A DNA stretch of 64,000 nucleotides from NCBI GenBank assembly GCA_016186825.1, contig JACPKW010000001.1, forward strand, positions 13,508 through 77,507, read 5' to 3'. The position numbers were made by a program, and so were the translations under genes. The DNA comes from Candidatus Giovannonibacteria bacterium. GTDB lineage: Bacteria > Patescibacteriota > Minisyncoccia > JACPKW01 > UBA11713. Under the pieces are notes generated by a model. That model saw nothing but the letters and a program-made list of their open reading frames with translations. It was not told the origin of the DNA and did not search any database. The number at the start of each line of letters is the position of its first letter. The stretch's first letter is position 1. Shown piece after piece: positions 31,451-49,928 of this stretch.

Positions 31451-32289
31451 ATTATCTTCTAGAAACTTAGAATTGATGTTCCCACGTAGTGTGCGGATTT
31501 CCCGCGCTACGCGAGCTCTAATGCATTGATGCTTTTATTTTATAGAGCTTAGCTAACCCCTGCTTGTTAAGATGTTGGCCGTTTTTTATCCTCAACATCA
31601 GATCACAGAATATCTCAAAGTCTCTTTTCTTTGATTTAAGCTGCAACTGATGAGTTTTAAAAAACGGAATAATGACATCTTCAAGATCCTTTCTATTGGA
31701 TACTTCATAGCGATAACAATTCTGGTGATTCTTACGTGTATCTTTCTGAAAATACACCTCGCCGCAACCGAAAAATTTTTTTAGCCTAAAGAGAATTTCA
31801 GAGTCTCTCTCAATAAGCTTTAAATAAAATTTCGGTTCAGCTCTAACCCATCTTTTTACATTTTTTGTAAATTCAGGGTTTTTAATGTAGGCGGTAAAAC
31901 TACCCTCGCCATCAACTAGTCCAATAATATATTCGGCATTAAGCATATTTAGAGTGGATCCTTTCCGGTTCTAGCCGGTACTATGATCCAGCTGACTTCT
32001 GACGCTGCGTAAGTTTCATTATATCTTATCTTGCGACAAAATAGCAGCGTCAGATCTCCACAGGTCATTTTATTTTCTATTCCAAGCATCCGAATTGGCC
32101 TTATTATGATCTTCCCTGCCCTCACCGCCAATTGCAGGTCGAACTGCCATTTATATATCGGCTGCTTTTTGCTTCCAGATCCTTCGCTTGCCGCTTCACA
32201 GCGGCAAACTATCTTTCGGCTATGCTCTTTGACGAGAAGAGAAATGGATTTTAACCATTCAGAAAATAAAACTGCTGCGCGCTTTTATT
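31451..32289 (-). mobile_element. intron-like insertion 1 in the 16S gene (near E. coli position 1391) carrying a LAGLIDADG ORF
   Basis: The 16S sequence stops after ...CTTGTACTCAC and resumes CGCCCGTCACG 839 bp later. Conserved rRNA flanks are intact on both sides. Confidence 0.65.
31518..31946 (-). CDS. LAGLIDADG homing endonuclease (single-motif)
   Basis: 142 aa. The N-terminal IIGLVDGEGSF is the LAGLIDADG motif. Encoded inside the 16S insertion on the same strand as the rRNA. Confidence 0.75.
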   Translation of the reverse strand: MLNAEYIIGLVDGEGSFTAYIKNPEFTKNVKRWVRAEPKFYLKLIERDSEILFRLKKFFGCGEVYFQKDTRKNHQNCYRYEVSNRKDLEDVIIPFFKTHQLQLKSKKRDFEIFCDLMLRIKNGQHLNKQGLAKLYKIKASMH

Positions 32290-32714
32290 GTGAGTACAAG
32301 ACTCGAGAACGTATTCACCGCGGCATAGCTGATCCGCGATTACTAGCGATTCCAGCTTCATGAGGTCGAGTTTCAGACCTCAATCCGAACTGAGCTCACC
32401 TTTGATGAGATTGGCTCCGCCTTACGGCATCGCGACCCATTGTAGTGAGCATTGTAGCATGTGTGTAGCCCAGGGCATCAGAGGGTCATGCTGACCTGGC
32501 GTCATCCCCGCCTTCCTCCCCCTATACGGAGGCAGTCTCGTCTGACACTTATAACAGACGATAAGGGTTGCGTTCGTTACCCCACTTAAGGGAACAGCTC
32601 AAGCCACGAACTGACGACGGCCATGCAACACCTGTGTAAGCGTCCTTGTGAGACATTTTTTCTTTCGAAAAAATTTCGCTTACATTTCAAGCCCTGGTGA
32701 GGTTCTTCGTTTAC

Positions 32715-32749
<35 letters not shown>

Positions 32750-32896
32750 AGTCCCCGTCTATTCCTTTGAGTTTTAATCTTGCGATCGTACTTCCCAGGC
32801 GGCAGGCTTAACGCGTTAGCTTACGGCTCCCGAAGGGTCGATACTTCGGATGCCTAGCCTGCATCGTTTAGGGCGTGGACTACAAGGGTATCTACA

Positions 32897-33593
32897 AATT
32901 TGTTGCTAACAACAAATTTGAAATTTTCAATTTTACAATTTCCAATTTTCAAAATGTTGTAGGGCAAGACATTTCTGCTTGTCTCTCTGCATCGCTGCAG
33001 AGTTCAGACTATATCATACGAGCACTTTGAGAAGCGGACGTCGTTAGACATCCGGACTTCAAAGTGCTCGCCTCGGCGTATAGTCGTTGAGGGGAATTAG
33101 ACTGGGATAAAACGACTCACCTCATAAAGGTTTCTGCCAATAACTCGATCTCCGCCAGCTTCGATGTTCTTGATAAATTCAGCCAAATCCGCTTTCGCAA
33201 GATCGTCGGACTCCTGTTCGATGCATTCAACTATGCTGCGGTTCTTGTTTTCTATATCAAGTATAGCGAGATAGTTCATTTTCTACTCCTTTCTTAATTC
33301 TTCCCTGCTGGTTATCCGCACCAAAACATTTTTACTCTTGCAAGTAGTTTTGGATACACCGGACTTTCCAGCATATAGCTCCCGCCTCGGCTCACGCCTC
33401 GACGGGATTCTCAATTTTGCAGCCAACATGCGTTGGGCAAAATTGGAACAAGTTTTTTATCCTCGTCCGCCAGTTAGCGGATTCGAGGGGACTAGTTTTC
33501 CGCCGATACCCTCGGCGGCCACTGCACAGCAGTAAAATCTCCAATTTGAAAATTGAAAATTGTAAATTGAAAATTTCGCTGCCATGCAGCGGG
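32897..33593 (-). mobile_element. intron-like insertion 2 in the 16S gene (within the GGATTA|GATACCC block, near E. coli position 788)
   Basis: About 697 bp interrupt a universally conserved block. The insertion termini carry complementary AT-rich repeats (AAATTTGAAATTTTCAATTTTACAATTTCC at 32921-32950 and GAAAATTGAAAATTGTAAATTGAAAATTTC at 33549-33578) that could pair the intron ends. Confidence 0.55.
33097..33279 (-). CDS. small acidic ORF inside 16S insertion 2, preceded by a strong SD
   Basis: 60 aa. The minus-strand upstream sequence reads GAATTAAGAAAGGAGTAGAAA-ATG, so the SD AAAGGAG lies 6 nt from the start. No recognised motif. Confidence 0.35.
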   Translation of the reverse strand: MNYLAILDIENKNRSIVECIEQESDDLAKADLAEFIKNIEAGGDRVIGRNLYEVSRFIPV

Positions 33594-33920
33594 TTAATCC
33601 TTTTTGATCCCCACGCTTTCGTGTTTCAGGGTCAGGAATGCCCCAGCAAATTGCCTTCGCCTTTGGTGTTCCCCTAGATATCAACGGATTTCACCCCTAC
33701 ACCTAGAGTTCCATTTGCCTCTGGCACCCTCCGAGCTCGGCCGTTTCCCCGCCAGCTTCAGGGTTGAGCCCTGAAATTTAAACGGAGACTAACCGTGCCC
33801 CCTACACACCCTTTACGCCCAATAAATCCGGATAACGCTCGGGCTCCTCGTCTTACCGCGGCTGCTGGCACGAGGTTAGCAAGCCCTTATTCCTGCGGTA
33901 CCGTCAGAGTTAGAGCTGTG

Positions 33921-34148
33921 AAGAGACAAGTTTTTTTCCTTTCTACTTGCCTCGTATTTTCCTTATTGGATAAGGACTATTGAAAATATATTTGGGGTTG
34001 TCATTTTTGATTCTTATGAATCTCCCAGGGACTTCATCTGATGTTGCTTCAAATTCTTTTGTAACTCTTTCCCCGGTTTTTTGATTTACCCCGCGCACTA
34101 TATACAAATAGCGCTGATATTCTCTATTTAACATTTTAAATATCTCCT
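33921..34148 (-). other. insertion of about 228 nt in the loop of the 16S V3 hairpin (helix 17), intervening-sequence-like
   Basis: Complementary stems GAGTTAGAGCTGTG (33907-33920) and CACAGCTCCAACTC (34149-34162) flank about 228 nt where E. coli has about 35 nt. Confidence 0.5.
33943..34134 (-). CDS. small basic ORF (63 aa) inside the 16S V3 insertion, preceded by an SD
   Basis: MLNREYQRYLYIVRGVNQKTGERVTKEFEATSDEVPGRFIRIKNDNPKYIFNSPYPIRKIRGK. The upstream minus-strand sequence is GTGAGGAGATATTT-ATG (GGAG 7 nt from the start). The longer ORF-track version (to 34299) runs into conserved rRNA and is rejected. Confidence 0.35.
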   Translation of the reverse strand: MLNREYQRYLYIVRGVNQKTGERVTKEFEATSDEVPGRFIRIKNDNPKYIFNSPYPIRKIRGK

Positions 34149-34626
34149 CACAGCTCCAACTCTTCTTCTCGCAGAAAAGCGGTTTACGCTCCGAAGAGCT
34201 TCTTCCCGCACGCGGCGTCGCTCGATCAGGCTTTCGCCCATTGTCGAATGTTCTTGACTGCAGCCACCCGTAGGTGTATGGACCGTGTCGCAGTTCCATT
34301 GGTGGGGATCAAGCTCTCACTTCCCCTAGCCGTCATAGCCTTGGTAGGCCATTACCCTACCAACAAGCTGATAGCCCGCAGGCCTTTCCCAGAGCCTATC
34401 GCTAGATTTACTCGGCACCTTCCAAACTTCGTGTAATTCGCTCGACACAAAGTCTCGAAGGTGCCGAGACTATCGGGAATTAGCTAACCTTTCGGCTAGT
34501 TATGCCCGTCTCTGGGGTAAGTTCCTACGTGTTACTACCCCGTCTGCCACTGAACATCTAAATCCGTCGCATTGATATAATCTCAACTCCTTCAAAAGAT
34601 GTTCCGTTCGACTTGCATGCCTTATC

Positions 34627-34666
<40 letters not shown>

Positions 34667-35068
34667 TTTGAATTGCTCACGCATTGCGCGAGCAAATTTT
34701 GAACGGGACAAAAGAGAGTAGTTATAACTTTCTTTTGTCACAAACTTTTCACCCGCTTAAGTATTGTCTTAAACAATTCCTTGCGGGTTGTGTGTCCCGA
34801 TTTTGCTTCTGCAAAGCAGAAATGCAAAATCGAGGATCCCCGATTTTCATTTATGAAAATCGGGACATGTTTTTGATATTCTTTTTTCAACGTTCTGTCG
34901 ATCTGAATATTCTCTGTAAACAAACCCGCAACTGCCTTCACATAAAAACAGTTGCGGACTTGTTTATTTTTCAAATAAATTTTTAGGGCTGTTTACATAA
35001 GTTTTCGAATTAATTCTAAGTCCAATGTCCATTATATGGTTCCTGCAAAGCTTGTCAACCGGCCGATT

Positions 35069-35773
35069 CTATCTCCTGTGAGCATCCCGCCAGAGCGCGA
35101 TTTTTTTATGATCCCCCGAAAGAAGGACTGGCGGAACCTTATACTTCCTTCCATGCCATTTTAGAACTTCAGGCCTTGTGTAATGAGGATATTCCAAGTC
35201 AGTTTTCAGTTGATAGTTTTTAGTTTTTAGTTTGGGGCCAAAACTTTCTTCAGCAAGCGATTCTTCTTTAAGCACCCCAGGAATAAGACGCACAAGCGCG
35301 GAAACAAACACCATAGCCCCGATATCACCGTCAGTCATAATATAGGGCCCGATTGAAATTTCCTCTGCGCGCAAAATTTTTTTGACGCGCTCATCAATTC
35401 CTTCATACCGTCCCGAAATTAAAATGAAGCGATTATATTTTTCAGACCAGTCATACGCAATTTTCTGGTTGAATTGTTTCCCCTTCGCCGAAAACAAAAT
35501 AATTTTTGTACGCAGCCCCACGGATTTTTTTTTTAAAGAAGAAACAGTGCGTAAAATTGGCTCGGCTTGAAGAACCATTCCTGCGCCTCCCCCAAACGGG
35601 CGGTCATCAACCTTTTTATGTTTGTCGCGTGTAAAATCTCGCAAATTCCAAATTTTAATCTCCGTTTTTTTCTTTTCTACCGCGCGCTTAATAATCGATT
35701 CTGAAAAATATGAATCAAAAATTTTCGGAAAAATTGTAATGATATCAAAACGAATTTTTGCCATGAATTTCAT
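35069..35773 (-). CDS. trmD: tRNA (guanine37-N1)-methyltransferase
   Basis: 234 aa. RFDIITIFPKIF, SPOUT-class knot motifs, GGGAGMVL and GRYEGIDER. Confidence 0.9.
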   Translation of the reverse strand: MKFMAKIRFDIITIFPKIFDSYFSESIIKRAVEKKKTEIKIWNLRDFTRDKHKKVDDRPFGGGAGMVLQAEPILRTVSSLKKKSVGLRTKIILFSAKGKQFNQKIAYDWSEKYNRFILISGRYEGIDERVKKILRAEEISIGPYIMTDGDIGAMVFVSALVRLIPGVLKEESLAEESFGPKLKTKNYQLKTDLEYPHYTRPEVLKWHGRKYKVPPVLLSGDHKKIALWRDAHRR

Positions 35774-40323: not shown

Positions 40324-42597
40324 TCAGAGTTGTCGAGATCTAATGGCAATCTTTCTGAAAAAGTAATAGAGGAGATAGGCAGGAATTGCTAAGATTGCGC
40401 AAAGAATCCAAATTATGTTTGAGCCGCCGCCGAGTTGATGCCGAATTTTTTTCTTTTCAGAAATTTCATAAGCGAGCAAAGCAGAGCCTAAAATTGCAGT
40501 GAAAATAATCAGAAAAGGCTTGAAATAATCGCCGATTCCAGTATAGGGCACTTGGCTTAAAAAGATATGCGATGCGGGAATCAATTGGCCTTGAAGCGTC
40601 ACATTGCTTGAAGGTAGGATCGGGCCGCCTACGCCACCACCGCCACCTCCTCCGCCACCGCCGCCACCGCCACCTCCTCCGCCGCCATTTCCTCCACCGC
40701 CATTTCCTCCACCGCCATTTCCTCCACCGCCACCGCCACCTTTTTTAGCGTTGGTAAATGTGCAAGTAACGGTTTCACCGAAACTCAAATTTATCTCACT
40801 TGTGGAATTTACGTTGCTGCAATTTGAGCTCTGGTTGTAGTCCGAATTTGAATTTTCTGTCACGGAGTAGACGCCCGGATTAAGCCCCGAAAAAGTTTTG
40901 GAATTTGAGAACGCGTCAGTAGTACTGCCGTTATCATCCAACTGGAAAGTTGTGGTAGCTAGACCAAGCGCTTTTGAGAAGAAATTAAATGTAAAAGCAG
41001 TCGCGTCATCAGGATCCGTATTTTTTATAATCACAAGATTCGCTTTTTTCTTTGTATTCGTGAAAGTGCATGTTACCGTTTCGCGCTCTGAAATTTTGAT
41101 CTCTGAAACCTGGCTTCCATCACTGCAAGATGAAATCGTTTCAAATAATGAATTGGGATCTTCACTGACGGCATAAGTTCCTGGAACCAGATTCACGAAA
41201 GTTTTTGAATTGGAAAATTGATTTGAATTGTTTCCATCATCATCGAGCTGGAAAACACCCGGATTTAAATTATCGGAACGGAAAGTAAATACGGTGCTGT
41301 GATCGGGAACGGTGTCTTTAACAATTACCAGGGAACCGAAAGCAGGCGGGGCTGGAGGTTGAGGCGGTTCTTCTTCATCTGCGGGGTTTTCACCTTCCTC
41401 GCCTTCATCTTCTGCGTCATCTTCACCGACTCCATCATCATCTTCTTCTGCAACCCCGTCGTCATCCTCCTCCGCAACTCCATCATCGTCTTCGCCTGCC
41501 GCGCCATCATCATCTTCCCCCGCGGTGCCGTCATCATCTTCACCTGCTGACCCATCGTCATCGCCCCCTCCGTCATTGTCATTATCACCATCGTCATCAC
41601 CATCGTCATCACTATCGTCATCGCTATCTCCGTCATCATCGCTATCACTGTCTCCATCATCATCACCACCATCTCCATCGCCGTCTCCGTCACCACCATC
41701 TGTGCCATAGTAGCGAAGCTTAAATTCAATTTGATCACTGTTATTGGCACCAATTGTTTTCAAAGGAATCTGGAAAGTATATGTTTTGTGTTCCCATTTT
41801 ACCTTGCTTGTATATTCATAATCGCTTTTGCCCCATTCCGCATGATTGTTGTCGATTTTGAAAAATCGGACACCGCTGTCAGTTTTTATTGCAAGCTCCG
41901 CCCAGTCGCCCTCCGGATCAAGCGTGTTGTCTGAAGTCCAGTCCAGAAACAATCTTAACTTCTCGCCGCTTGTTCTAAAGTATGCATATCTCGTCGCGGC
42001 AGGATGGCTCGATGCAGGTATTGCATCGAATTTATAAACCTTGTTTTGGCCAACCTCGTAATTTAAGTATCCTTTTTCAGGCCATTCATAAGGGACGCCC
42101 TTGTAATCTTCCTCGACTCCCGTAATAAAAAGCGTTCTTCCTTTTTCAATCCACGAAAGCTCAATAGTCTTTGACAACGCATCAACAACATCATAATCGG
42201 CATGCGAAAGTTTCTTCGTTGAAATCAATTTTCCGTCAGATGCGTACTTCGCCTCGGAAGGAATTTTTCCGCCTAGCGAAACTTCATCCAGATGCGCGCT
42301 TTGAGAATTTCCATCATGCCTAATGCGGACCCGATTAGTTTCTCCCGGAAGCAGGATAGTTTTTGATGTATAGCGATCGGGGTAAGGTTGCCCCGGAAAA
42401 TTTTCATCTGCAACAAAAATCCATTCGCCGTTATTGTAAGCTTCAATAATAAATGTTCCCGCTTCTGCGCGCGCATCAAAAACTCCCGATGTGAAAACAG
42501 AATGCAGTATGCGGACCACAAAATATAAAATTACGAAAAACAAAACCGCGTTTATCTTCTTAATTGTTATAATTTTTTTATTTATTTCTTTTTCCAT
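40324..42597 (-). CDS. large cell-surface protein: beta-sandwich repeats, acidic Asp/Gly/Glu tract, poly-Gly tract, VPYTG sorting-like signal
   Basis: The start is moved to MEKEINKK (signal/TM at AVLFFVILYFVV). Two repeated modules end ...GETVTCTFTN. Low-complexity GDGDGD...DDDG...EEDDDG and (GGGGN)n tracts. The C-terminus has QVPYTG, a hydrophobic stretch and a basic patch. A sortase gene lies 1.4 kb upstream. Confidence 0.7.
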   Translation of the reverse strand: MEKEINKKIITIKKINAVLFFVILYFVVRILHSVFTSGVFDARAEAGTFIIEAYNNGEWIFVADENFPGQPYPDRYTSKTILLPGETNRVRIRHDGNSQSAHLDEVSLGGKIPSEAKYASDGKLISTKKLSHADYDVVDALSKTIELSWIEKGRTLFITGVEEDYKGVPYEWPEKGYLNYEVGQNKVYKFDAIPASSHPAATRYAYFRTSGEKLRLFLDWTSDNTLDPEGDWAELAIKTDSGVRFFKIDNNHAEWGKSDYEYTSKVKWEHKTYTFQIPLKTIGANNSDQIEFKLRYYGTDGGDGDGDGDGGDDDGDSDSDDDGDSDDDSDDDGDDDGDNDNDGGGDDDGSAGEDDDGTAGEDDDGAAGEDDDGVAEEDDDGVAEEDDDGVGEDDAEDEGEEGENPADEEEPPQPPAPPAFGSLVIVKDTVPDHSTVFTFRSDNLNPGVFQLDDDGNNSNQFSNSKTFVNLVPGTYAVSEDPNSLFETISSCSDGSQVSEIKISERETVTCTFTNTKKKANLVIIKNTDPDDATAFTFNFFSKALGLATTTFQLDDNGSTTDAFSNSKTFSGLNPGVYSVTENSNSDYNQSSNCSNVNSTSEINLSFGETVTCTFTNAKKGGGGGGGNGGGGNGGGGNGGGGGGGGGGGGGGGGGGVGGPILPSSNVTLQGQLIPASHIFLSQVPYTGIGDYFKPFLIIFTAILGSALLAYEISEKKKIRHQLGGGSNIIWILCAILAIPAYLLYYFFRKIAIRSRQL

Positions 42598-42723
42598 ATG
42601 ATTTTGGATCTGTTGATGCAGACCCTTCTTTGCCCCGAAATTTATTTCGGGATAAAGAAGGATCCGGAAGGAGAGCGCATGCACCCGCATGACTCTTCCT
42701 TCCGGAATTACGCGTCACTCGTT

Positions 42724-43938
42724 TCACTCGTTCGTAGAAAAGTGGAATCGTGAAAATTCTGTCACGACTCCACGTTCGCCCTTCGGCTCCCGAGTTTTGC
42801 CGAAAGGTCTGGACTTTAGTTTCCCTCCGCTCGGGTATCGGAGGATCCCTTTTGGCCCGTAAATTTCAAAAAACATATCATCACGAGCCCAAGACAGCGG
42901 GAACTTTAGTTCGCCCACGCCGTCGCAAACTTCGAGCGAAATAGTATTTGCTTCCGGTCCGAAACCTGAAAGCCTTTCGCGCCTGCCGTTCCGCTCAAAA
43001 ATGGAACCATGAGCGGCGTCAAAATTCGCATTTGTAAACCTCACCAGAAATTTCTGGCAAGGAAGCGAACTTAACTGCGCAATACCCTGCTTCTTTTCTT
43101 CCATGATTTTCTTGCCCAGGTTGTGGCTTTGAAAACCTGGTTTTTCATTAAGCAAGGCAGCAGTCCCGATCGGCTTCCACAAGCGTGGGAGAATACTAAA
43201 CATATCTTCCACACGTGTTGGTTCGACGGTAGACACGCCCGGAGGCGGCGGCGGGACATAGGCCTGCGAAACAGGCGGTTTCGCTGGGAAACACAGCCGC
43301 GACCAGTTGTTACAATCAAATGGATGTACCAGCCGGCAGGTTGTTCCTGCGATTGTTACATCCCACGATTCCTTGGATGCCTCAACGGCCAATTCAACAG
43401 GGACACCTAACTCCATACCGCTCCCCACCATCATCGCATCCAATTTATCGCCTCGAATCAGAGCTCCCGGGGCTCCCTCTTCGGTTTGAACTTTTTTTAG
43501 AAATTCTTTTTGGTAACCGAAGAACGGTGTGCCTTGGGCGAACAGGCATTTGATTGCCTCCTCGCGCGTCCCCTTGTAAGGGTCTCCTCGAAGAGACCTC
43601 CAAGGCTTGCCGCGAGCCACGATTTTACATGGATCCGCAACCCGCGCCTGCGCAGTTTTAACTTTTGGGGGCGGCTTCTTGGTTGCCTTGGCGGGCGGCT
43701 TCTTTACTTTCGCCGCCGCAACTTTTGCCGGCACATCACCTCCCGCACCCATCTCAACTTTTTTTTCAAATTCTTTTTTTGCCTTTTCGGCGGCTTTTAC
43801 CGCCGAGTCAGGCGCAGACTGGATCAACGGCACCTGCATGATTTCCTCCGCTCCCCAAGCGCTTTCCAGCAGCCCGAGAACTACTACCACGACTCCTGCC
43901 GCGAGGGAGGGCCAAAAAACCGAACCTGTCTCTTTCAT
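42724..43938 (-). CDS. secreted protein of unknown function (GC-rich gene)
   Basis: 404 aa. N-terminal signal-like hydrophobic segment, a Lys/Ala/Pro-rich tract (AAKVKKPPAKATKKPPPKVK), then a Cys-containing globular part. The composition is clearly GC-richer than the neighbours. Confidence 0.55.
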   Translation of the reverse strand: MKETGSVFWPSLAAGVVVVVLGLLESAWGAEEIMQVPLIQSAPDSAVKAAEKAKKEFEKKVEMGAGGDVPAKVAAAKVKKPPAKATKKPPPKVKTAQARVADPCKIVARGKPWRSLRGDPYKGTREEAIKCLFAQGTPFFGYQKEFLKKVQTEEGAPGALIRGDKLDAMMVGSGMELGVPVELAVEASKESWDVTIAGTTCRLVHPFDCNNWSRLCFPAKPPVSQAYVPPPPPGVSTVEPTRVEDMFSILPRLWKPIGTAALLNEKPGFQSHNLGKKIMEEKKQGIAQLSSLPCQKFLVRFTNANFDAAHGSIFERNGRRERLSGFGPEANTISLEVCDGVGELKFPLSWARDDMFFEIYGPKGILRYPSGGKLKSRPFGKTREPKGERGVVTEFSRFHFSTNE

Positions 43939-44038
43939 AACACCTCCAAATTTCTTAATTGAACGTTGTTTATTGACGCGTTTTTAGTTTAAAAAGAACT
44001 TCCTCCTTCCTTCCTCATCTCATTTCCAAACTGTTCAA

Positions 44039-44091
44039 TTTGTCAAACATTGTCAAACATCTGATGTCTGACAAATTTAGATGTTGGACAA
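44039..44091. promoter_or_regulatory. array of TTGTC(A/C)(A/G)ACATC half-sites (two direct, two inverted), candidate operator
   Basis: TTGTCAAACAT|TGTCAAACATC t GATGTCTGACAA ...GATGTTGGACAA. A 25-bp near-perfect palindrome with one mismatch, plus flanking half-site copies. It lies about 100 bp upstream of the 42724-43938 gene and just downstream of the sortase gene. Confidence 0.55.
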
Positions 44092-44093
44092 GC

Positions 44094-44870
44094 TTATGAA
44101 GAAGCACCCGCCGAGAGTAGAGTCGCTCCAAACGGATATCTCTTCACAAATTCCGCTTCAACAATGTAGCGTTCCTCATTTGCGCCGAAAATTTTGCAGG
44201 TTGAAAGGGTCAAAATTTTTCTGCCGTCAGTATGAAAATCAATTTCTGCGTCTTCAGCCCGCCTTATCTGCACATTTAAAACCTTGTAGGCATACTCGTA
44301 GCCGTTCGAACGCATGTAAATTGCATCGCCGTATTTCAATTCTTTTAAATTATTAAATACTATTGAATTTTTATTTCTCGGATTAAGCACGCCCGCAGAA
44401 TGCCCAAAGACAAACATGTTTCCAACTTCGCCCGGCATTACAGAGCCCGGGTAATGAACTGGGCCTTTGAGCAAACTCGCCGTTAAGTAATCCCAATCGT
44501 TTTTGATCGGAAAAACTATTTGGCTCTGCACGCCAGCCTTAGGAATTACAAGTTGAACTCCGCCCTCAAAACTTATTCGAGCATTTTCATCTTCTGGAAC
44601 TGTTTCAGATTCAGAAACTGCAGGCGATGCCTCCTCGTTATCACCTTGCGTAAATGACCCGAAAACCCACGCAACCGAATTTAAGAAAACTTCCGAAATT
44701 CCGTCTTTAAGATTGCCGCCAAAAATAGGCGTGAAAAAAATTAATGCAAAAATGCCGAGCAAAATTACAAGCCACAAACCCAAAAAACCCAAACTAAATA
44801 TCCCTTCGCTTTTTGCGCGTAAATCAGCTCGGCATCCATGTTTTTCTAAAATTTCACCTCTTTGATACAT
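44094..44870 (-). CDS. sortase-family transpeptidase
   Basis: 258 aa. N-terminal TM anchor, catalytic His in FVFGHSAG, Cys in ILTLSTCKIFG (TLxTC), downstream Arg. Confidence 0.75.
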   Translation of the reverse strand: MYQRGEILEKHGCRADLRAKSEGIFSLGFLGLWLVILLGIFALIFFTPIFGGNLKDGISEVFLNSVAWVFGSFTQGDNEEASPAVSESETVPEDENARISFEGGVQLVIPKAGVQSQIVFPIKNDWDYLTASLLKGPVHYPGSVMPGEVGNMFVFGHSAGVLNPRNKNSIVFNNLKELKYGDAIYMRSNGYEYAYKVLNVQIRRAEDAEIDFHTDGRKILTLSTCKIFGANEERYIVEAEFVKRYPFGATLLSAGASS

Positions 44871-46042: not shown

Positions 46043-46735
46043 TCACTCCCAGCCCTGCGCTTTTAGGCCGATTTCCGCCGCCTGCTGTTGCGCTTCCTGT
46101 TTGGACGGCCCCTCGCCTTCCCCGATTAACTTTTCTCCAATATAGACGCCCACCACGAAATGTTTGTTGTGATCGGGCCCCCATTCTTTCAGCACCTCAT
46201 ATGTCGGGGTAACGCCCGATATTTCCTGCGCGCGTTCCTGAAACAAGCTTTTTGCGTCACGGAATAATTTTTTTTCTAAGACTTCCTGCATCTTCGTAAG
46301 CAAGCTTTTTTCTATAAAATCCTTGGATACTTCGTAGCCCTGATCAAGATAAATTGCCCCGATTAAAGCCTCGAAAGCATTCGCAAGAATATACTGCCGC
46401 GCGCGCCCGACGTCTTTCGCCTCGCCGCGCGAAAGCAAAATAAAATCATTCATTCCAAGCTCGCGCGCAACTTCAGAAAGCATATTAGCGTTTACCAAGG
46501 CCGCGCGAAAGCTTGTGAGCTCGCCCTCGGGCTTATCGGGGAAAATTTTATAAAGATGCTCGGTCACAATTAATTCTAAAACAGCGTCCCCCAAAAATTC
46601 GAGTCGCTCATTTTGCCCCACATCCCATGACGGATTCTCGTTCAAATACGAACGATGCGTGAATGCCTCTTTCAAAAGCCTCGCATCTTTAAATTTAAAA
46701 TTAATTTTTTCTTCAAACTCCGACAAATCTTTCAT
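46043..46735 (-). CDS. rnc: ribonuclease III
   Basis: 230 aa. The RNase III signature ERLEFLGDAVLELIV, plus a C-terminal dsRBD. Confidence 0.85.
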   Translation of the reverse strand: MKDLSEFEEKINFKFKDARLLKEAFTHRSYLNENPSWDVGQNERLEFLGDAVLELIVTEHLYKIFPDKPEGELTSFRAALVNANMLSEVARELGMNDFILLSRGEAKDVGRARQYILANAFEALIGAIYLDQGYEVSKDFIEKSLLTKMQEVLEKKLFRDAKSLFQERAQEISGVTPTYEVLKEWGPDHNKHFVVGVYIGEKLIGEGEGPSKQEAQQQAAEIGLKAQGWE

Positions 46736-46744
46736 GAATTGATT

Positions 46745-47638
46745 TTAATCATTTATCAGCTTGTGAGCCTTTTTTAAAAGCGGTTTAATATCATCATAAG
46801 TTTTCAAATCATCGAATTCTTCGGGCAAAAACCATCTCGCATCATCAAGGCCGCTATGATCTTCGCCTAAATTTAAATCGCTTTCTTTTGTTTCTGCCAA
46901 AAAATATGTGACTTGCCTGCGAATTTTCCCTTTGGCTGGATCAGATGCAATATATTCGTTTTTTCCGAGTTCTTCTGTCAACACTAAATCTTTCAAGCCA
47001 AGTTCTTCTGCAAGCTCTCTTTTTGCGCCTGCCGATGAATCTTCCTCACCTTCCAAGTGGCCCTTTGAGAGCGTCCAATATCCAAAAACATCGTGGACAA
47101 GCGCAAAAAATATTTTTTTTCCATCGCGCCTGAAAACGACTCCGCCTCCCAATTTTTCAATAGGAAGATCAGCAAGGTCTTTGATAATTTTCTTTTTTGA
47201 AGTTTCATCTTTGCCGGGCTCCCCGATCTCCCGATAAACAGTGCCTAAAACTCCGTTTATGAATTTGCCCGACGAATCAGACCCGAAAGTTTTCGCGATT
47301 TCGATTGCTTCGTTGATCGCAACTTTAGGCGGAACCTCTTCGCGATTGCCAAAAAGAAGCTCGTAAAGGCCGAGACGCAAAACATTACGGTCCACCATCG
47401 CAACCTGTTCTAAGGGCCATTCCGGAGCGGCTTTCTCAATAATCGAGTCTATTTTGTCTCGATTTGCAAGAACGCCGTTCACTAATTCTCGGGCGAATTT
47501 GGGATCATCCATTCCGGGCGCGAATTCTTCTAACATCCCATTTAAAATTTTTTCCACCTGTTCATTTTTCTGCCCGTGAAAATCCCACTCAAAAAGAGTT
47601 TGCATCGCGATACTGCGGGAAAGATGTCTATTTGCCAT
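46745..47638 (-). CDS. NusB-like N-terminal domain fused to a NUDIX hydrolase domain
   Basis: 297 aa. Residues 1-150 are NusB-like (RSIAMQTLFEWDF...LRLGLYELLF...AINEAIEIAKTFGSDSSGKFINGVLG). The C-terminus has a perfect Nudix box GHLEGEEDSSAGAKRELAEELGL (Gx5Ex7REUxEExGU). Confidence 0.75.
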   Translation of the reverse strand: MANRHLSRSIAMQTLFEWDFHGQKNEQVEKILNGMLEEFAPGMDDPKFARELVNGVLANRDKIDSIIEKAAPEWPLEQVAMVDRNVLRLGLYELLFGNREEVPPKVAINEAIEIAKTFGSDSSGKFINGVLGTVYREIGEPGKDETSKKKIIKDLADLPIEKLGGGVVFRRDGKKIFFALVHDVFGYWTLSKGHLEGEEDSSAGAKRELAEELGLKDLVLTEELGKNEYIASDPAKGKIRRQVTYFLAETKESDLNLGEDHSGLDDARWFLPEEFDDLKTYDDIKPLLKKAHKLIND

Positions 47639-47722: not shown

Positions 47723-47995
47723 TTATTTCCTTGAAAGTTCTTCGAGGCTGCCCGAACCCTGCTCCTCCTTTGCCCCCTCTAGTTCTTTCTCTTTTTTCTT
47801 TCGCTCTTTTTTATCTAATTTTTTAAGGACATCAATTACCTGTCTGTCGTTATACCAGCCGCAATTCGCACATATTACATGCGGAAGTTTTTCAAAACCG
47901 CAATGGTTGCACTTCGAAAGCCGCCCCACTTTTAAAGCGTGGTGCGATCTCCGGTTATTTCTATGCGATTTTGTATGCCTCATTCGAACTGTCAT
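47723..47995 (-). CDS. rpmF: 50S ribosomal protein L32 with a C-terminal acidic/basic extension
   Basis: 90 aa. MTVRMRHTKSHRNNRRSHHAL plus a CxxC...CxxC zinc ribbon (CNHCG...CANCG). Confidence 0.75.
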   Translation of the reverse strand: MTVRMRHTKSHRNNRRSHHALKVGRLSKCNHCGFEKLPHVICANCGWYNDRQVIDVLKKLDKKERKKKEKELEGAKEEQGSGSLEELSRK

Positions 47996-48094: not shown

Positions 48095-48502
48095 TCATGA
48101 GACCTTGATTTTGGCCTCGGTTGAATCAGCAGAAGCTTCCGCCGCTTTGATACTCCATTTTTTTACCGCATCCTTGATGGAGCTTCGCAAAATATAGAAC
48201 TTCTCTTCAAGCGGGGCTTCTCCAAAACGCGTTAGCAGCTTTTCGGCGAATTCTTTGCCCCACTCCCCAAAAAGAATATCAACCACCCGTCCGCAACATT
48301 CCACCACCCCCTGGTGTCCTAAAAAACCAAAGGTGTGATAACTCAAGTCCGAATCATCACGTTTTGGGTGTTTCGTGCCACAGAGTCCGCACTGGATAGC
48401 GGTATGTGTGCCGTGCATACAATTACCCAGAGTAAATATTTCCGATGGACCTACTGGTTTTTTAAATACGTATCCTCTCCCCTTTCTTTGCTTTTTCTTC
48501 AT
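48095..48502 (-). CDS. Cys-rich hypothetical protein, possibly a divergent YceD/DUF177 positional analogue
   Basis: 135 aa. Cys motifs CMHGTH, CGLCG and ECCGR. It sits upstream of rpmF, where DUF177 usually sits. No confident motif match. Confidence 0.4.
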   Translation of the reverse strand: MKKKQRKGRGYVFKKPVGPSEIFTLGNCMHGTHTAIQCGLCGTKHPKRDDSDLSYHTFGFLGHQGVVECCGRVVDILFGEWGKEFAEKLLTRFGEAPLEEKFYILRSSIKDAVKKWSIKAAEASADSTEAKIKVS

Positions 48503-48607: not shown

Positions 48608-49288
48608 TCATATGTTGAACATTCGATGTTCAACATTGAGCCTTTCTTCCAGTTTTCGTATGCTTGTCTTTTCAAGCAAATCTCTATACTCGGAGCGGGT
48701 TTCAAATTGATCTAAGATTAAGCTCGGATTTAAAAAATTTGCCCATCGACTTTCATAAACATAATCTTGATAGCTAGACCAAGGATATTGTAATTCTTTT
48801 TTCTTCCACCGTTTTAATTCTCCAGGGTTTAAGTGGATATACGCAGTTAGGTAATGCAAATATTTATCAGTATCTATATGCGCGGATTGAAATTTGCTTC
48901 CAAAAAGATGGCCGGAGCGATTATATCTGGTGTTGAAATATTTCGTATATGCATTTAGCAGACGCTGCATATATTTAGAAATCCCTCCTTCTTTTTCGCT
49001 ACCTACAATCAAGTGGAAGTGATTCGCCATCAAACAAAAACCTACTAGTTCAATATATCTTGACTTTTCAATCTGTCCAAAAATCAAATTGTTGAACATT
49101 CGATGTTCAACCAATGGCACGATGCGCCCAAAAGGATTCAAAACTGCATCACCTTGGAGCGCAAAGAGAAGCGAAAGAAAACGCCAGCGATCTTTATCAT
49201 CAAGAAAGATATTGCGTTTCTCAACCCCTCGGTTGAAAACATGGTAATACTCTCCACCCGCTAATTTTGCCCGAGACATAATCCTCAT
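48608..49288 (-). CDS. IS200-like Y1 (HUH) transposase, REP-associated tyrosine transposase (RAYT)-like
   Basis: The start is taken at the first ATG (MRIMSRAK). The ORF-track start at 49315 is a TTG inside a hairpin. YYHVFNRG (like YHVxxRG) and LMANHFHLIV (the HUH motif) are diagnostic. A C-terminal Tyr-containing helix is present. Confidence 0.7.
   Translation of the reverse strand: MRIMSRAKLAGGEYYHVFNRGVEKRNIFLDDKDRWRFLSLLFALQGDAVLNPFGRIVPLVEHRMFNNLIFGQIEKSRYIELVGFCLMANHFHLIVGSEKEGGISKYMQRLLNAYTKYFNTRYNRSGHLFGSKFQSAHIDTDKYLHYLTAYIHLNPGELKRWKKKELQYPWSSYQDYVYESRWANFLNPSLILDQFETRSEYRDLLEKTSIRKLEERLNVEHRMFNI
48612..48636. repeat. REP-like palindrome ATGTTGAACAT-TCG-ATGTTCAACAT (3' copy, overlaps the last 9 codons of the transposase)
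   Basis: Perfect 11-bp arms, read directly. Confidence 0.85.
49090..49111. repeat. REP-like palindrome TGTTGAACAT-TCG-ATGTTCAACC (internal copy, in-frame inside the transposase gene)
   Basis: 9/10 arm match. It encodes the same VEHRMFN peptide as the 3' copy. Confidence 0.8.
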
Positions 49289-49294
49289 TATAAA

Positions 49295-49317
49295 TGTTGA
49301 ACATCCAATGTTCAACA
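49295..49317. repeat. REP-like palindrome TGTTGAACAT-CCA-ATGTTCAACA (5' copy at the transposase start)
   Basis: Perfect 10-bp arms, immediately upstream of or overlapping the start region. Confidence 0.85.
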
Positions 49318-49331
49318 GTTAGTTCAGGAGG

Positions 49332-49928
49332 TTAGATTAGTTTCGTGCAAAAACTGACGCGGTGAATTTCGGAGAGACCGTTTTTTAAAACCAATTCGCG
49401 GTGGAGTTTCGTCCCATAACCTTTATGCTGGTCAAAATTATAAAGAGGGAATTTTTTTGCGAGGCGCATCATTTTACGATCACGCGTTACTTTTGCAACT
49501 ATGGAAGCCGCAGAAATGACTGAAATCTTTTCATCGCCTTTTATAATCGTTTCCTGCTGATATTCGGAAGGCGCATGAAGAGAACCGTCGAGCAGCAGTT
49601 TAATAGTTGAGTAGTTAAATAGTTTATTTGTTACAAATAACTTTTTGAGACAGCGCTTTATCGCGAGCCTTGTAGCGTATGTAATTCCCTTTTTATCAAT
49701 CACTGCGTTGCTTACGCATGAGACGGAATATCTAAAATTATGATTTTTTTTGATTTTCGAAAACCAGACGTCGCGTTTTTTTGCAGACAGTTTTTTTGAG
49801 TCTCTAATGCCATCAAAAAAATTCGATTTATTAAATTTTGAACCCACTGGCTGAACTAACGCCGCGACCGTAACCGGCCCCGCCAATGGCCCTCTCCCCG
49901 CTTCGTCAATTCCAACAATAAATCTCAT
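49332..49928 (-). CDS. rnhB: ribonuclease HII
   Basis: 198 aa. IVGIDEAGRGPLAGPV is the RNase HII active-site motif. Confidence 0.85.
   Translation of the reverse strand: MRFIVGIDEAGRGPLAGPVTVAALVQPVGSKFNKSNFFDGIRDSKKLSAKKRDVWFSKIKKNHNFRYSVSCVSNAVIDKKGITYATRLAIKRCLKKLFVTNKLFNYSTIKLLLDGSLHAPSEYQQETIIKGDEKISVISAASIVAKVTRDRKMMRLAKKFPLYNFDQHKGYGTKLHRELVLKNGLSEIHRVSFCTKLI

What the first reader, a model, noticed from the sequence alone, without database searches (positions are those of the whole stretch)
46745..47638. NusB–NUDIX fusion protein next to RNase III
One 297-aa polypeptide has a complete NusB-like helical domain (residues about 1-150) followed by a NUDIX hydrolase domain with a textbook Nudix box (GHLEGEEDSSAGAKRELAEELGL). 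It lies directly upstream of rnc on the same strand. NusB normally partners NusE in rRNA antitermination. Fusion to a Nudix domain (RppH-like RNA pyrophosphohydrolase, or NudC-like NAD-cap decapping) would physically link transcript 5'-end processing to the antitermination/rRNA-processing machinery. This fusion is not a described architecture, to my knowledge.
Basis: partly seen in the sequence, partly recalled or inferred. Interest (0 to 1): 0.55.

Follow-up and report, generated by a model that had tools for sequence, protein, structure and literature searches.

The report
NusB with an appended Ap4A-hydrolase-type domain
This gene is a real, widespread variant of the transcription factor NusB in one group of ultra-small (Parcubacteria) bacteria, carrying an extra nucleotide-binding "Nudix" domain that across the family keeps its ligand pocket but often loses its catalytic residues. 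That pattern suggests a nucleotide or RNA-5'-end sensor attached to the ribosomal-RNA transcription machinery rather than simply an enzyme.

Summary
Window 46745..47638 (-) is one 297-aa ORF with a NusB domain (TIGR01951, 140 bits against a cutoff of 88) and a NUDIX domain with a perfect Nudix box. It lies between rpmF and rnc.

It is not an artefact. All 120 best homologs and 48 of the 80 retrieved species-representative genomes carry the same single-ORF fusion.

The interpretation needs correcting in three ways:
- **Subgroup:** the Nudix half belongs to the asymmetric Ap4A/ApnA-hydrolase group (Aquifex Ap4A hydrolase, CT771, NUDT2, Ndx1). It fails the RppH models and has no NudC features.
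- **Gene order:** rpmF-nusB-rnc is equally conserved in Parcubacteria whose NusB is unfused, so the rnc adjacency is ancestral and says nothing about the Nudix domain.
- **Catalysis:** only 12 of 46 fused species keep the full catalytic box, and the metal-binding "RE" glutamate is Glu in 22 of 46. Residues matching the adenine- and phosphate-binding residues of Ap4A hydrolases are essentially invariant. Unfused relatives keep the box (54 of 65).

This mirrors NrtR, an enzyme turned ligand-binding module. The window's copy has an intact box and may still hydrolyse. No paper describing the fusion was found; databases label it plain "NusB".

The parts
46745..47638 (-). nusB-nudix fusion gene, 297 aa plus stop codon
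   Evidence: ORF list. Pfam NusB + NUDIX. TIGR01951 above cutoff. 120 of 120 best homolog clusters carry both domains.
47225..47638 (-). NusB domain (residues 1-138), all-helical
   Evidence: Pfam match at residues 7-136. Best solved relative is T. maritima NusB 1tzt at 1.8e-24; E. coli and Aquifex NusB also match. The AF2 model has helices across residues 2-138. Foldseek TM 0.88-0.90 and rmsd 1.7-1.8 A to Aquifex NusB in the NusB-NusE-BoxA complexes 3r2c/3r2d.
47165..47224 (-). Linker (residues 139-158): conserved GEPGKD motif followed by a Lys-rich disordered stretch
   Evidence: pLDDT is below 50 for residues 144-151 and pTM is 0.64. G139, E140, P141 and G142 are invariant in close homologs. 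The same EIGEPGKD motif plus a charged tail ends many unfused Parcubacterial NusB proteins, so the motif predates the fusion.
46748..47164 (-). Nudix domain (residues 159-297) of the asymmetric Ap4A/ApnA-hydrolase type
   Evidence: Pfam NUDIX at residues 167-285. Best PDB sequence hits are CT771 (1.4e-9), human NUDT2 (1.4e-8), Ndx1, and the C. elegans and Aquifex Ap4A hydrolases. Foldseek: 3i7u TM 0.87-0.89 and rmsd about 2 A, then CT771, NUDT2, 1ktg, Ndx1 and MutT1/Rv2985. Invariant W188, K192, Y229, K/R241, W269, Y281 and D283.
46994..47062 (-). Nudix box, residues 193-215: GHLEGEEDSSAGAKRELAEELGL, fully canonical in this copy
   Evidence: Read directly from the sequence. Across the family this box is degenerate: canonical in 75 of 120 close homologs, 7 of 46 distant fused representatives and 12 of 46 fused species genomes.
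46043..46735 (-). rnc (RNase III), immediately downstream on the same strand
   Evidence: Pfam Ribonucleas_3_3, Ribonuclease_3 and dsrm. Found downstream of nusB in nearly all 80 related loci, fused or not.
47723..47995 (-). rpmF (ribosomal protein L32), upstream on the same strand
   Evidence: Pfam Ribosomal_L32p. Conserved upstream neighbour in fused and unfused loci.
49332..49928 (-). rnhB (RNase HII), a conserved member of the rnhB-rpmF-nusB-rnc neighbourhood. In this window it is separated from rpmF by an inserted IS200-like gene and a 135-aa ORF.
   Evidence: Pfam RNase_HII. Lies upstream of rpmF in many related loci.

Best explanation
The gene encodes the organism's NusB ortholog. It occupies the ancestral Parcubacterial rpmF-nusB-rnc position. 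An Ap4A/ApnA-hydrolase-type Nudix domain has been appended to its C-terminus through a roughly 20-residue disordered, Lys-rich tether that derives from the charged tail already present on unfused Parcubacterial NusB.

Inferred by homology: the NusB half works as in other bacteria. It pairs with S10/NusE on the rRNA leader to build a termination-resistant, processing-competent transcription complex.

The Nudix half is best read as an adenine-nucleoside-polyphosphate binding module held at that complex. Across the fused family, the residues that in Ap4A hydrolases stack the adenine, read its amino group and hold the P1 phosphate are invariant. The metal-binding catalytic glutamates have been lost many times. 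This is the same path from enzyme to ligand-binding accessory domain that is documented for the NrtR regulators.

The ligand is inferred and not shown. It could be a free ApnA or ATP-type nucleotide acting as a signal, or the A-initiated 5'-triphosphate or Ap4-capped end of the nascent leader RNA.

The window's own protein keeps a perfect Nudix box, so it probably both binds and hydrolyses its ligand (a bifunctional, ancestral-like state).

Shown: the architecture, the orthologous position, the fold class, the flexible tether and the conservation pattern. Inferred: the ligand identity, its effect on antitermination, and residual catalysis.
For: - **Domains and folds:**
- **Orthologous locus:** rpmF-nusB-rnc is conserved in 48 fused and 32 unfused species-representative loci. 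In unfused genomes there is no Nudix ORF within about 6 kb and no room between nusB and rnc. The linker motif predates the fusion.
- **Catalytic residues relaxed:**
  - Full box in 75 of 120 close homologs, 7 of 46 distant fused representatives and 12 of 46 species genomes.
  - E208 is Glu in 22 of 46 species genomes.
  - At least 14 independent E208 changes inside the close clade.
- **Control:** unfused relatives from the same search keep the box in 54 of 65. Eight of the eleven exceptions carry the fused-family WTLSKG-type motif, and one of them (P0122) is a confirmed contig-edge fragment of a fused gene.
- **Ligand site invariant:** W188, K192, K/R241, W269 and Y281 in 46 of 46; Y229 in 44 of 46; D283 in 43 of 46.
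- **Residue mapping:** by the alignments, K192 = human Lys42, K/R241 = Lys89, Y281 = Phe128 and D283 = Glu130. PMC4734340 assigns these residues to P1-phosphate binding, adenine stacking and adenine-NH2 hydrogen bonding.
- **Metal binding:** the RExxEE glutamates ligate the essential metals, and the ligands overlay in Ap4A hydrolase and RppH (PMC5526541).
- **Precedent:** in NrtR, perturbed Nudix signatures give no activity but retain ligand binding, and members with an intact signature remain active (PMC2330246).
- **Purifying selection:** the Nudix domain is still conserved (58% mean pairwise identity in the close clade against 73% for NusB).
Against: - No biochemical data exist for any family member.
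- The conserved aromatic and basic residues are also conserved in catalytically active Ap4A hydrolases. Some (W188, Y245, W269) may simply be fold-core residues, so their invariance alone does not prove ligand binding.
- Lys frequently replaces E208, and residual or altered catalysis in those proteins cannot be excluded.
- Y229 = human Tyr82 is uncertain, because the loop length differs and the mapping is supported only by the CT771 alignment.
- No boxA element could be recognised in the window's 16S leader with the E. coli consensus, so even the NusB-side target is assumed.
- A second nusB elsewhere in the genome cannot be excluded.
- The same Nudix subtype is fused to unrelated partners elsewhere, which is compatible with a non-specific fusion.
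Confidence: 0.5

Rival explanations
1. One reading: the Nudix domain is primarily an RNA 5'-end processing enzyme (RppH-type pyrophosphohydrolase or a decapping enzyme). NusB delivers it to nascent rRNA, so that leader 5' ends become monophosphorylated or decapped for decay and processing.
For: - The window's copy has a perfect Nudix box.
- Np4A hydrolases in bacteria act both on free Np4A and on Np4-capped RNA 5' ends (PMC13010140; PMC8833179 and PMC7044304).
- The flexible tether on an RNA-leader-binding factor would place the domain near nascent RNA.
Against: - RppH NCBIfam models reach only 16-18 bits against cutoffs of 116-118, and only over the Nudix box.
- There is no NudC hit, no Cys and no SQPWPFPxS motif.
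- RppH is not among the PDB sequence hits or the top 50 fold hits.
- The metal-binding glutamate is lost in about half of fused species. That would be incompatible with an essential catalytic role for the family.
Confidence: 0.2
2. A fortuitous 'Rosetta-stone' fusion. A housekeeping Ap4A/NTP-cleaning Nudix enzyme became joined to nusB in a compact genome for co-expression only, with no functional coupling to antitermination.
For: - The same Nudix subtype occurs fused to shikimate kinase, endonuclease III, PDZ domains and a DnaA_C/sigma-r4 HTH protein.
- The linker is disordered and pTM is 0.64, so no fixed interdomain interface is predicted.
Against: - A housekeeping hydrolase should keep its catalytic box, as the unfused relatives do (54 of 65). 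The fused lineage does not (12 of 46), yet it retains the domain and its pocket over deep divergence. The fused family spans at least 51 clusters at 50% identity and 48 species genomes among the 80 examined.
Confidence: 0.15
3. A structural scaffold. The Nudix fold has been co-opted as a protein-protein interaction module that stabilises the antitermination complex, analogous to the enzyme-fold protein SuhB in E. coli rrnTAC. Ligand binding would be irrelevant.
For: - SuhB, an inositol-monophosphatase-fold protein, is an integral rrnTAC subunit (PMC6614801).
- Its recruitment converts transient NusB/E binding into stable complexes that boost RNase III processing (bioRxiv 10.64898/2026.03.17.712431).
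- Catalytic residues are dispensable in the fused family.
Against: - The residues that stay invariant are those lining the nucleotide pocket by homology, not an obvious new surface.
- No interaction data or multimer model are available.
- The presence or absence of SuhB in these genomes was not testable.
Confidence: 0.1
4. An artefact: two separate genes joined by a frameshift or assembly error.
For: None found.
Against: - The same single ORF occurs in 120 of 120 best clusters from independent sources.
- It also occurs in 48 independent species-level assemblies.
- The only two interrupted cases are explained by an N-run (L046) and by in-frame TGA codons at Trp columns (L052).
Confidence: 0.01

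Closest known systems
Bacterial NusB (E. coli, Aquifex, T. maritima; TIGR01951 / PF01029)
   Same: The N-terminal 138 residues score above the equivalog cutoff, share the all-helical fold (TM about 0.89 to NusB in the NusB-NusE-BoxA complex) and sit in the locus where unfused Parcubacterial nusB sits.
   Different: Carries a C-terminal 140-residue Nudix domain on a disordered tether. Canonical NusB is a single-domain protein of about 140 aa.
RsmB/Sun (NusB-like N-terminal domain fused to a 16S rRNA m5C methyltransferase)
   Same: Another natural fusion of a NusB-fold RNA-binding domain to an enzyme domain acting in rRNA biogenesis. RsmB models hit the NusB half weakly.
   Different: The partner domain is a SAM methyltransferase, not Nudix. 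RsmB models score far below their cutoffs here (64 bits against 319), so this is not RsmB.
Asymmetric Ap4A/ApnA hydrolases (human NUDT2, C. trachomatis CT771, C. elegans and Aquifex Ap4A hydrolases, T. thermophilus Ndx1, mycobacterial MutT1/Rv2985)
   Same: Best sequence and fold matches of the C-terminal domain. It shares the WxxPKGH-type motif, the phosphate-binding lysines, the adenine-stacking aromatic residue and the acidic adenine reader.
   Different: Fused to NusB. Across the fused family the catalytic metal ligands are frequently lost. Activity is untested.
NrtR / AraR Nudix-related transcriptional regulators
   Same: A Nudix hydrolase fused to a nucleic-acid-binding transcription factor. 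Most members have a degenerate Nudix signature yet bind the ligand, and members with an intact signature remain catalytic (PMC2330246). NrtR and AraR Nudix domains appear among the fold and sequence hits.
   Different: NrtR derives from ADP-ribose pyrophosphatases and is fused to a winged-HTH DNA-binding domain that acts as a repressor. Here the source is an ApnA hydrolase and the partner is an RNA-binding antitermination factor.
SuhB in the E. coli rRNA antitermination complex
   Same: An enzyme-fold protein that serves as an accessory component of the NusB/NusE-containing complex and promotes coupling to RNase III processing.
   Different: SuhB is a separate inositol-monophosphatase-fold dimer. 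No homology, and no evidence here for an equivalent role.
RppH / ApaH / YqeK (Np4A hydrolases that also decap Np4-capped RNA)
   Same: Enzymes of ApnA metabolism that also act on RNA 5' ends. This gives a plausible chemistry for copies with an intact box, such as the window's.
   Different: RppH family models are not met. ApaH and YqeK have unrelated folds.

Membership tests
NusB (TIGR01951 / PF01029) | Profile score above the curated cutoff | tested here: met
   TIGR01951 scores 140.4 bits against a cutoff of 88.35; PF01029 scores 130 bits against 23.1.
NusB (TIGR01951 / PF01029) | All-alpha NusB fold | tested here: met
   The AF2 model has seven helices over residues 2-138 with pLDDT above 90. 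Foldseek TM 0.88-0.90 to 3r2c/3r2d NusB.
NusB (TIGR01951 / PF01029) | Orthologous genomic position | tested here: met
   rpmF-nusB-rnc is conserved in 80 Parcubacterial loci, fused and unfused.
NusB (TIGR01951 / PF01029) | Binds NusE/S10 and a boxA element in the rRNA leader | tested here: inconclusive
   Binding is not testable with these tools. The E. coli boxA consensus finds 35 matches against 33.5 expected by chance, with none on the rRNA strand in the 16S leader.
Nudix superfamily (PF00293) | Nudix fold and the GX5EX7REUXEEXGU box | tested here: met
   PF00293 scores 54 bits against 21.1. The box at residues 193-215 is exact. However, the box is canonical in only 12 of 46 fused species.
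Asymmetric Ap4A/ApnA hydrolase group (NUDT2 / CT771 / Ndx1) | Closest sequence and structural similarity | tested here: met
   The top PDB sequence hits are all of this group. Foldseek ranks 1-22 are Ap4A/Ap6A hydrolases and MutT1/Rv2985.
Asymmetric Ap4A/ApnA hydrolase group (NUDT2 / CT771 / Ndx1) | P1-phosphate lysines, adenine-stacking aromatic residue and acidic adenine reader | tested here: met
   K192, K/R241, Y281 and D283 align to human Lys42, Lys89, Phe128 and Glu130 (residue roles from PMC4734340). They are 93-100% conserved.
Asymmetric Ap4A/ApnA hydrolase group (NUDT2 / CT771 / Ndx1) | Mg2+-dependent ApnA hydrolysis | not testable with these tools
   Needs an enzyme assay. It is plausible for the window protein (intact box) and doubtful for the many orthologs lacking E208.
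RppH (NCBIfam NF001936 / NF001938) | Profile score above the cutoff over the whole domain | tested here: not met
   18.3 and 16.4 bits against cutoffs of 118 and 116, aligned only over residues about 174-224.
NudC (NAD-cap decapping / NADH pyrophosphatase) | Zn-binding Cys motif and an SQPWPFPxS motif after the Nudix box | tested here: not met
   The protein has no cysteine and no such motif (sequence). There is no NudC hit at E <= 0.01.
NrtR family | Nudix effector domain plus a C-terminal winged-HTH DNA-binding domain | tested here: not met
   No HTH domain is present. The partner is an N-terminal NusB domain. The resemblance is in evolutionary logic only.

The most novel reading that the evidence does not exclude
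The Nudix domain is a built-in nucleotide or 5'-end reader of the rRNA antitermination complex. It would bind an adenine nucleoside polyphosphate: the stress alarmone Ap4A or ATP, or the pppA/Ap4-capped 5' end of the nascent rRNA leader. Through that binding it would tune or anchor NusB-S10 assembly on RNA polymerase. Intact-box copies, such as this one, would additionally erase the ligand. This would be the first Nus factor with a small-molecule or RNA-cap sensing domain. It would give genome-reduced Parcubacteria a direct link between adenylate or alarmone status and ribosome synthesis.
Probability: 0.3. Interest if true: 0.75.

Novelty: new variant of a known kind. Interest (0 to 1): 0.55.

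Why it matters
NusB is a universal core factor of bacterial rRNA transcription, and no ligand-sensing or enzymatic accessory domain on it has been described in the literature I could search. The finding matters for three reasons:
- **Breadth:** a large Parcubacteria clade has replaced plain NusB with this version, so in those organisms the rRNA antitermination machinery necessarily carries an ApnA-hydrolase-derived domain.
- **Testable question:** the conservation pattern (pocket kept, catalysis often lost) converts a vague "fusion enzyme" idea into a concrete one. Do Ap4A/ATP-type nucleotides or RNA 5'-end status regulate rRNA synthesis in CPR bacteria, whose regulatory repertoire is largely unknown?
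- **Evolution and annotation:** it is a second, independent example of the NrtR-type route by which a Nudix hydrolase becomes a regulatory module. It is also a caution for annotation, because thousands of database entries are labelled only "NusB".

Tried and rejected
- **Split-gene versions:** the best apparently standalone Nudix hit (P0122, 53% identity) is a contig-edge fragment followed by rnc. Eight short non-canonical "standalone" hits carry the fused-family WTLSKG-type motif and are probably fragments as well.
- **Donor lineage:** genuinely standalone relatives (P0161, P0191) lie in integrase/methylase/Rep_O and SIR2/PLD/helicase neighbourhoods, which say nothing about the origin.
- **Single versus multiple origin:** an NJ tree of the 140-aa NusB domain mostly separates fused from unfused sequences but is too poorly resolved to count gains and losses.
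- **boxA in the 16S leader:** the E. coli consensus with up to 3 mismatches matches at chance level.
- **Promoter and terminator scan of the operon:** matches at chance level, not informative.
- **Second NusB or Nudix gene:** none in the 64-kb window with family-specific HMMs. The rest of the genome is not available.
- **Mapping conservation onto the 3D model:** coordinates are not exposed to the scripting environment, so residue roles rest on alignments to solved homologs.
- **Literature:** searches for NusB+Nudix+fusion, NusB+CPR and Nudix+Patescibacteria found nothing relevant. The CT771 paper was not held.
- **Cluster names:** these added only one generic label, "ADP-ribose pyrophosphatase YjhB".
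Full report
**1. The observation**

Window 46745..47638 (minus strand) is a single 297-aa ORF.
- Pfam places NusB (PF01029) at residues 7-136 (E 8.6e-38) and NUDIX (PF00293) at residues 167-285 (E 2.3e-14).
- The NCBIfam nusB equivalog TIGR01951 scores 140 bits against a cutoff of 88.
- The quoted Nudix box is residues 193-215 and fits GX5EX7REUXEEXGU exactly.
- rnc (Ribonuclease_3 + dsrm) begins 9 nt after the stop codon on the same strand, and rpmF lies 84 nt upstream.

**2. Not an artefact, and not rare**

A search of about 5.8 billion protein clusters returned the capped maximum of 8000 hits. All 120 best hits are about 295-300 aa and carry both Pfam domains. They come from NCBI, JGI, ENA, Logan and UniRef, and where named they are called only 'transcription antitermination factor NusB'. 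The named sources are Giovannoni-, Niyogi- and Tagabacteria and 'Patescibacteria group'.

An exhaustive HMMER search with the Nudix half alone found 204 representatives (50%-identity clusters) at E <= 1e-10. Of the best 150, 51 also contain NusB, and 35 of those are full length.

A scan of one genome per GTDB species matched at least 597 stretches. In the 80 loci kept, 48 have both domains in one reading frame and 32 have plain NusB. Two apparent interruptions are explained: L046 by an N-run, and L052 by three in-frame TGA codons at invariant Trp columns.

Named fused lineages are Niyogi-, Kaiser-, Ryan-, Nomura-, Zambryski- and Komeilibacteria. Named unfused ones are Yanofsky-, Moran-, Azam-, Wildermuth-, Staskawicz- and Harrisonbacteria. 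Representatives of both sets sit in NCBI's Parcubacteria group.

**3. Genomic context**

(rnhB-)rpmF-nusB-rnc is conserved in essentially all 80 loci. In unfused genomes nusB abuts rnc, with no Nudix ORF between them or within about 6 kb. Two conclusions follow.
- The fused gene is the ortholog of nusB at its ancestral position. It is not an extra paralog.
- The RNase III adjacency predates the fusion, so it cannot be used as evidence for what the Nudix domain does.

Many unfused Parcubacterial NusB proteins end with the motif EIGEPGKD followed by a 10-45-residue K/E-rich tail. The conserved 'linker' of the fusion (G139-E-P-G142 is invariant in close homologs) is therefore inherited, and the Nudix domain was added behind it.

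An NJ tree of the NusB domain mostly separates fused from unfused sequences but is too weak to count origins. No second NusB or Nudix gene lies in the window. The rest of the genome is unavailable.

**4. Structure**

AlphaFold2 with a 42-sequence alignment gives a mean pLDDT of 91.8. The model has seven helices (residues 2-138), a disordered stretch (residues 144-151, pLDDT below 50) and an alpha/beta Nudix domain (residues 160-296). pTM is 0.64, which fits two rigid domains on a flexible tether.

Foldseek against the PDB gives the following.
- The NusB half matches Aquifex NusB from the NusB-NusE-BoxA complexes (TM 0.88-0.90, rmsd 1.7-1.8 A).
- The Nudix half matches Aquifex Ap4A hydrolase (TM 0.87-0.89, rmsd about 2 A). 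Next come CT771, human NUDT2, C. elegans Ap4A hydrolase, Ndx1 (an Ap6A hydrolase) and mycobacterial MutT1/Rv2985.
- NrtR Nudix domains also appear.

The sequence search agrees: CT771 at 1.4e-9, NUDT2 at 1.4e-8, then Ndx1 and the C. elegans and Aquifex enzymes.

RppH models reach only 16-18 bits over the box against cutoffs of about 117. NudC does not hit. The protein has no cysteine and no SQPWPFPxS motif. The domain is therefore of the ApnA-hydrolase type, not RppH or NudC.

**5. The key finding: catalytic residues decay while the pocket is kept**

Using window numbering, the Nudix-box set is G193/E199/R207/E208/E211/E212/G214.

| Sample | Full canonical box | E208 status |
|---|---|---|
| Close homologs (at least 61% identity) | 75 of 120 | non-Glu in 29 of 120 |
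| Distant fused representatives | 7 of 46 | Glu in 12 of 46 |
| Fused species-representative genomes | 12 of 46 | Glu in 22 of 46 |
| Unfused relatives (control) | 54 of 65 | Glu in 56 of 65 |

- Substitutions at E208 are K, V, I, A, S or G. E199 is also often P or V.
- Fitch parsimony on an NJ tree needs at least 14 independent changes at E208 within the close clade alone.
- In the control, 8 of the 11 exceptions carry the fused-family 'WTLSKG'-type motif. One of these (P0122) is a confirmed contig-edge fragment of a fused gene.
- In contrast to the box, W188, K192, K/R241, W269 and Y281 are conserved in 46 of 46 species genomes. Y229 is conserved in 44 of 46, Y245 (Y or F) in 44 of 46 and D283 in 43 of 46.
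- The Nudix domain evolves faster than NusB (58% against 73% mean pairwise identity in the close clade) but is clearly under constraint.

**6. What those residues do in solved homologs**

PMC5526541 states that RExxEE binds the required metal. In DHNTPase the 'RE' Glu ligates M2/M3, and the ligands overlay in Ap4A hydrolase and RppH.

PMC4734340 describes the human enzyme as follows.
- Lys42, Tyr82 and (in Plasmodium) the Lys89 equivalent hold the P1 phosphate.
- A loop-5 Tyr and Phe128 stack the adenine.
- Glu130 hydrogen-bonds the adenine amino group.

In the HMMER alignments, K192 = Lys42, K/R241 = Lys89, Y281 = Phe128 and D283 = Glu130. These regions align without gaps. Y229 aligns to the corresponding Tyr of CT771, but its mapping to human Tyr82 is less certain because the loop length differs.

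So the fused family preserves the adenine and phosphate site and lets the metal site go.

**7. Interpretation**

This is the pattern documented for NrtR regulators. There, a Nudix hydrolase fused to a nucleic-acid-binding transcription factor keeps effector binding while most members lose the signature and the activity. Members with an intact signature remain active, and restoring the signature raised kcat 600-fold (PMC2330246).

I therefore favour the following reading. It is a NusB ortholog carrying an adenine-nucleoside-polyphosphate-binding module, flexibly tethered to the rRNA antitermination complex. The window's intact-box copy probably still hydrolyses its ligand.

Candidate ligands, which are inferred, are:
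- free ApnA or ATP-type nucleotides acting as a signal; or
- the pppA or Ap4-capped 5' end of the nascent leader.

Np4A hydrolases are known to govern both Np4A pools and Np4 caps in bacteria. The E. coli complex is known to be stabilised by an accessory enzyme-fold protein, SuhB, and to boost co-transcriptional RNase III cleavage. Either an anchoring or a regulatory role is therefore mechanistically conceivable.

The rivals are a purely catalytic RppH-like role, a fortuitous housekeeping fusion (the same Nudix subtype is fused to shikimate kinase, EndoIII, PDZ and an HTH protein elsewhere) and a ligand-independent scaffold. Each is listed with its tests.

**8. Limits**

- No activity or binding data exist.
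- Some invariant aromatic residues may be fold-core residues.
- Lys at position 208 might support altered chemistry.
- boxA could not be recognised in the window's 16S leader with the E. coli consensus.
- Whole genomes could not be inspected for a second nusB or for other ApnA hydrolases, RppH or SuhB.

**9. Novelty and score**

Both domains belong to well-known families. The combination is abundant in databases but is annotated as plain NusB, and I found no description in 8 million full-text papers and preprints.

It is a new variant of a known kind: NusB with an NrtR-like, ApnA-hydrolase-derived accessory domain.

Interest is moderate (0.55). It is a clade-wide remodelling of a universal transcription factor with a concrete, testable regulatory hypothesis, but its function is unproven.

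Noticed in passing
L052 6001-6912 (CAZWMQ010000003.1, GC 29%): The fused nusB-nudix gene has three in-frame TGA codons exactly at the family's invariant Trp columns (W74, W188, W269). Translating the locus with table 4 raises its longest ORF from 554 to 1142 aa (this does not happen in three control loci), and all long ORFs whose stop codon lies within the locus end in TAA. This suggests UGA=Trp recoding in a Patescibacteria-like genome.
   Followed up: partly
window 32243-34672 (-), and 31518-31946 (-): The 16S rRNA gene spans 2430 nt for a 1533-nt model, so it carries about 900 nt of insertion. An internal 118-aa ORF (33943..34299) has no Pfam hit. A LAGLIDADG_1 homing-endonuclease ORF lies about 300 nt downstream of the 16S 3' end. 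No 23S rRNA was detected in the window.
   Followed up: partly
window 48608-49322 (-): An IS200-like Y1 transposase ORF (PF01797) is inserted between rnhB and rpmF. In many of the related loci the two lie within a few hundred bases of each other. Three copies of a palindrome, TGTTGAACATNNNATGTTCAACA, lie at 48612-48640, 49089-49117 and 49294-49322: one at each end of the ORF and one inside it. This looks like a REP/RAYT-type element.
   Followed up: partly
window 48095-48502 (-): A 135-aa Cys/His-rich ORF between the transposase and rpmF has no Pfam family.
   Followed up: no
window 34673-35060 (-): A consensus sigma-70 promoter, TTGACA-16 nt-TATAAT (35058..35031), lies directly after trmD (35069..35773) and about 350 nt upstream of the 16S gene. 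The leader RNA folds into several strong hairpins (MFE -121.6 kcal/mol, z = -8.8), including a terminator-like stem followed by GUUUGUUU. No E. coli-type boxA is recognisable.
   Followed up: partly
P0251 (1219 aa, 4-kb Logan contig) and P0214 (577 aa): Larger architectures end in NusB-Nudix. P0251 has a weak HEPN_Swt1 match plus NB-ARC/STAND NTPase, TPR repeats, NusB and Nudix. P0214 has an unannotated N-terminal region of about 315 residues before NusB-Nudix. These could be real or gene-call fusions.
   Followed up: no
P0164, P0260, P0222/P0231, P0242, P0180: The same ApnA-hydrolase-like Nudix subtype occurs fused to Sigma70_r4 + DnaA_C HTH, shikimate kinase, PDZ domains and endonuclease III, and also in tandem with a second Nudix domain. 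All but P0164 (RKTREE) have an intact box.
   Followed up: no
L041-L080 (unfused nusB loci): Many unfused Parcubacterial NusB proteins carry a conserved C-terminal EIGEPGKD motif followed by a 10-45-residue K/E-rich low-complexity tail. This feature is absent from E. coli-type NusB and its function is unknown.
   Followed up: partly
L082 5001-5453; L083 5001-5456: The nearest genuinely standalone relatives of the Nudix domain lie in mobile-element or defence-like neighbourhoods: phage integrase, DNA methylase and Phage_rep_O in L082; SIR2_2, PLDc_2 and a large helicase in L083.
   Followed up: no
window 40324-44870 (-): A sortase gene (44094..44870) lies next to large ORFs, one of which has a weak SpaA-type prealbumin-fold hit (40324..42690). 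This may be a sortase-dependent surface or pilus locus immediately downstream of the convergent gene after rnc.
   Followed up: no
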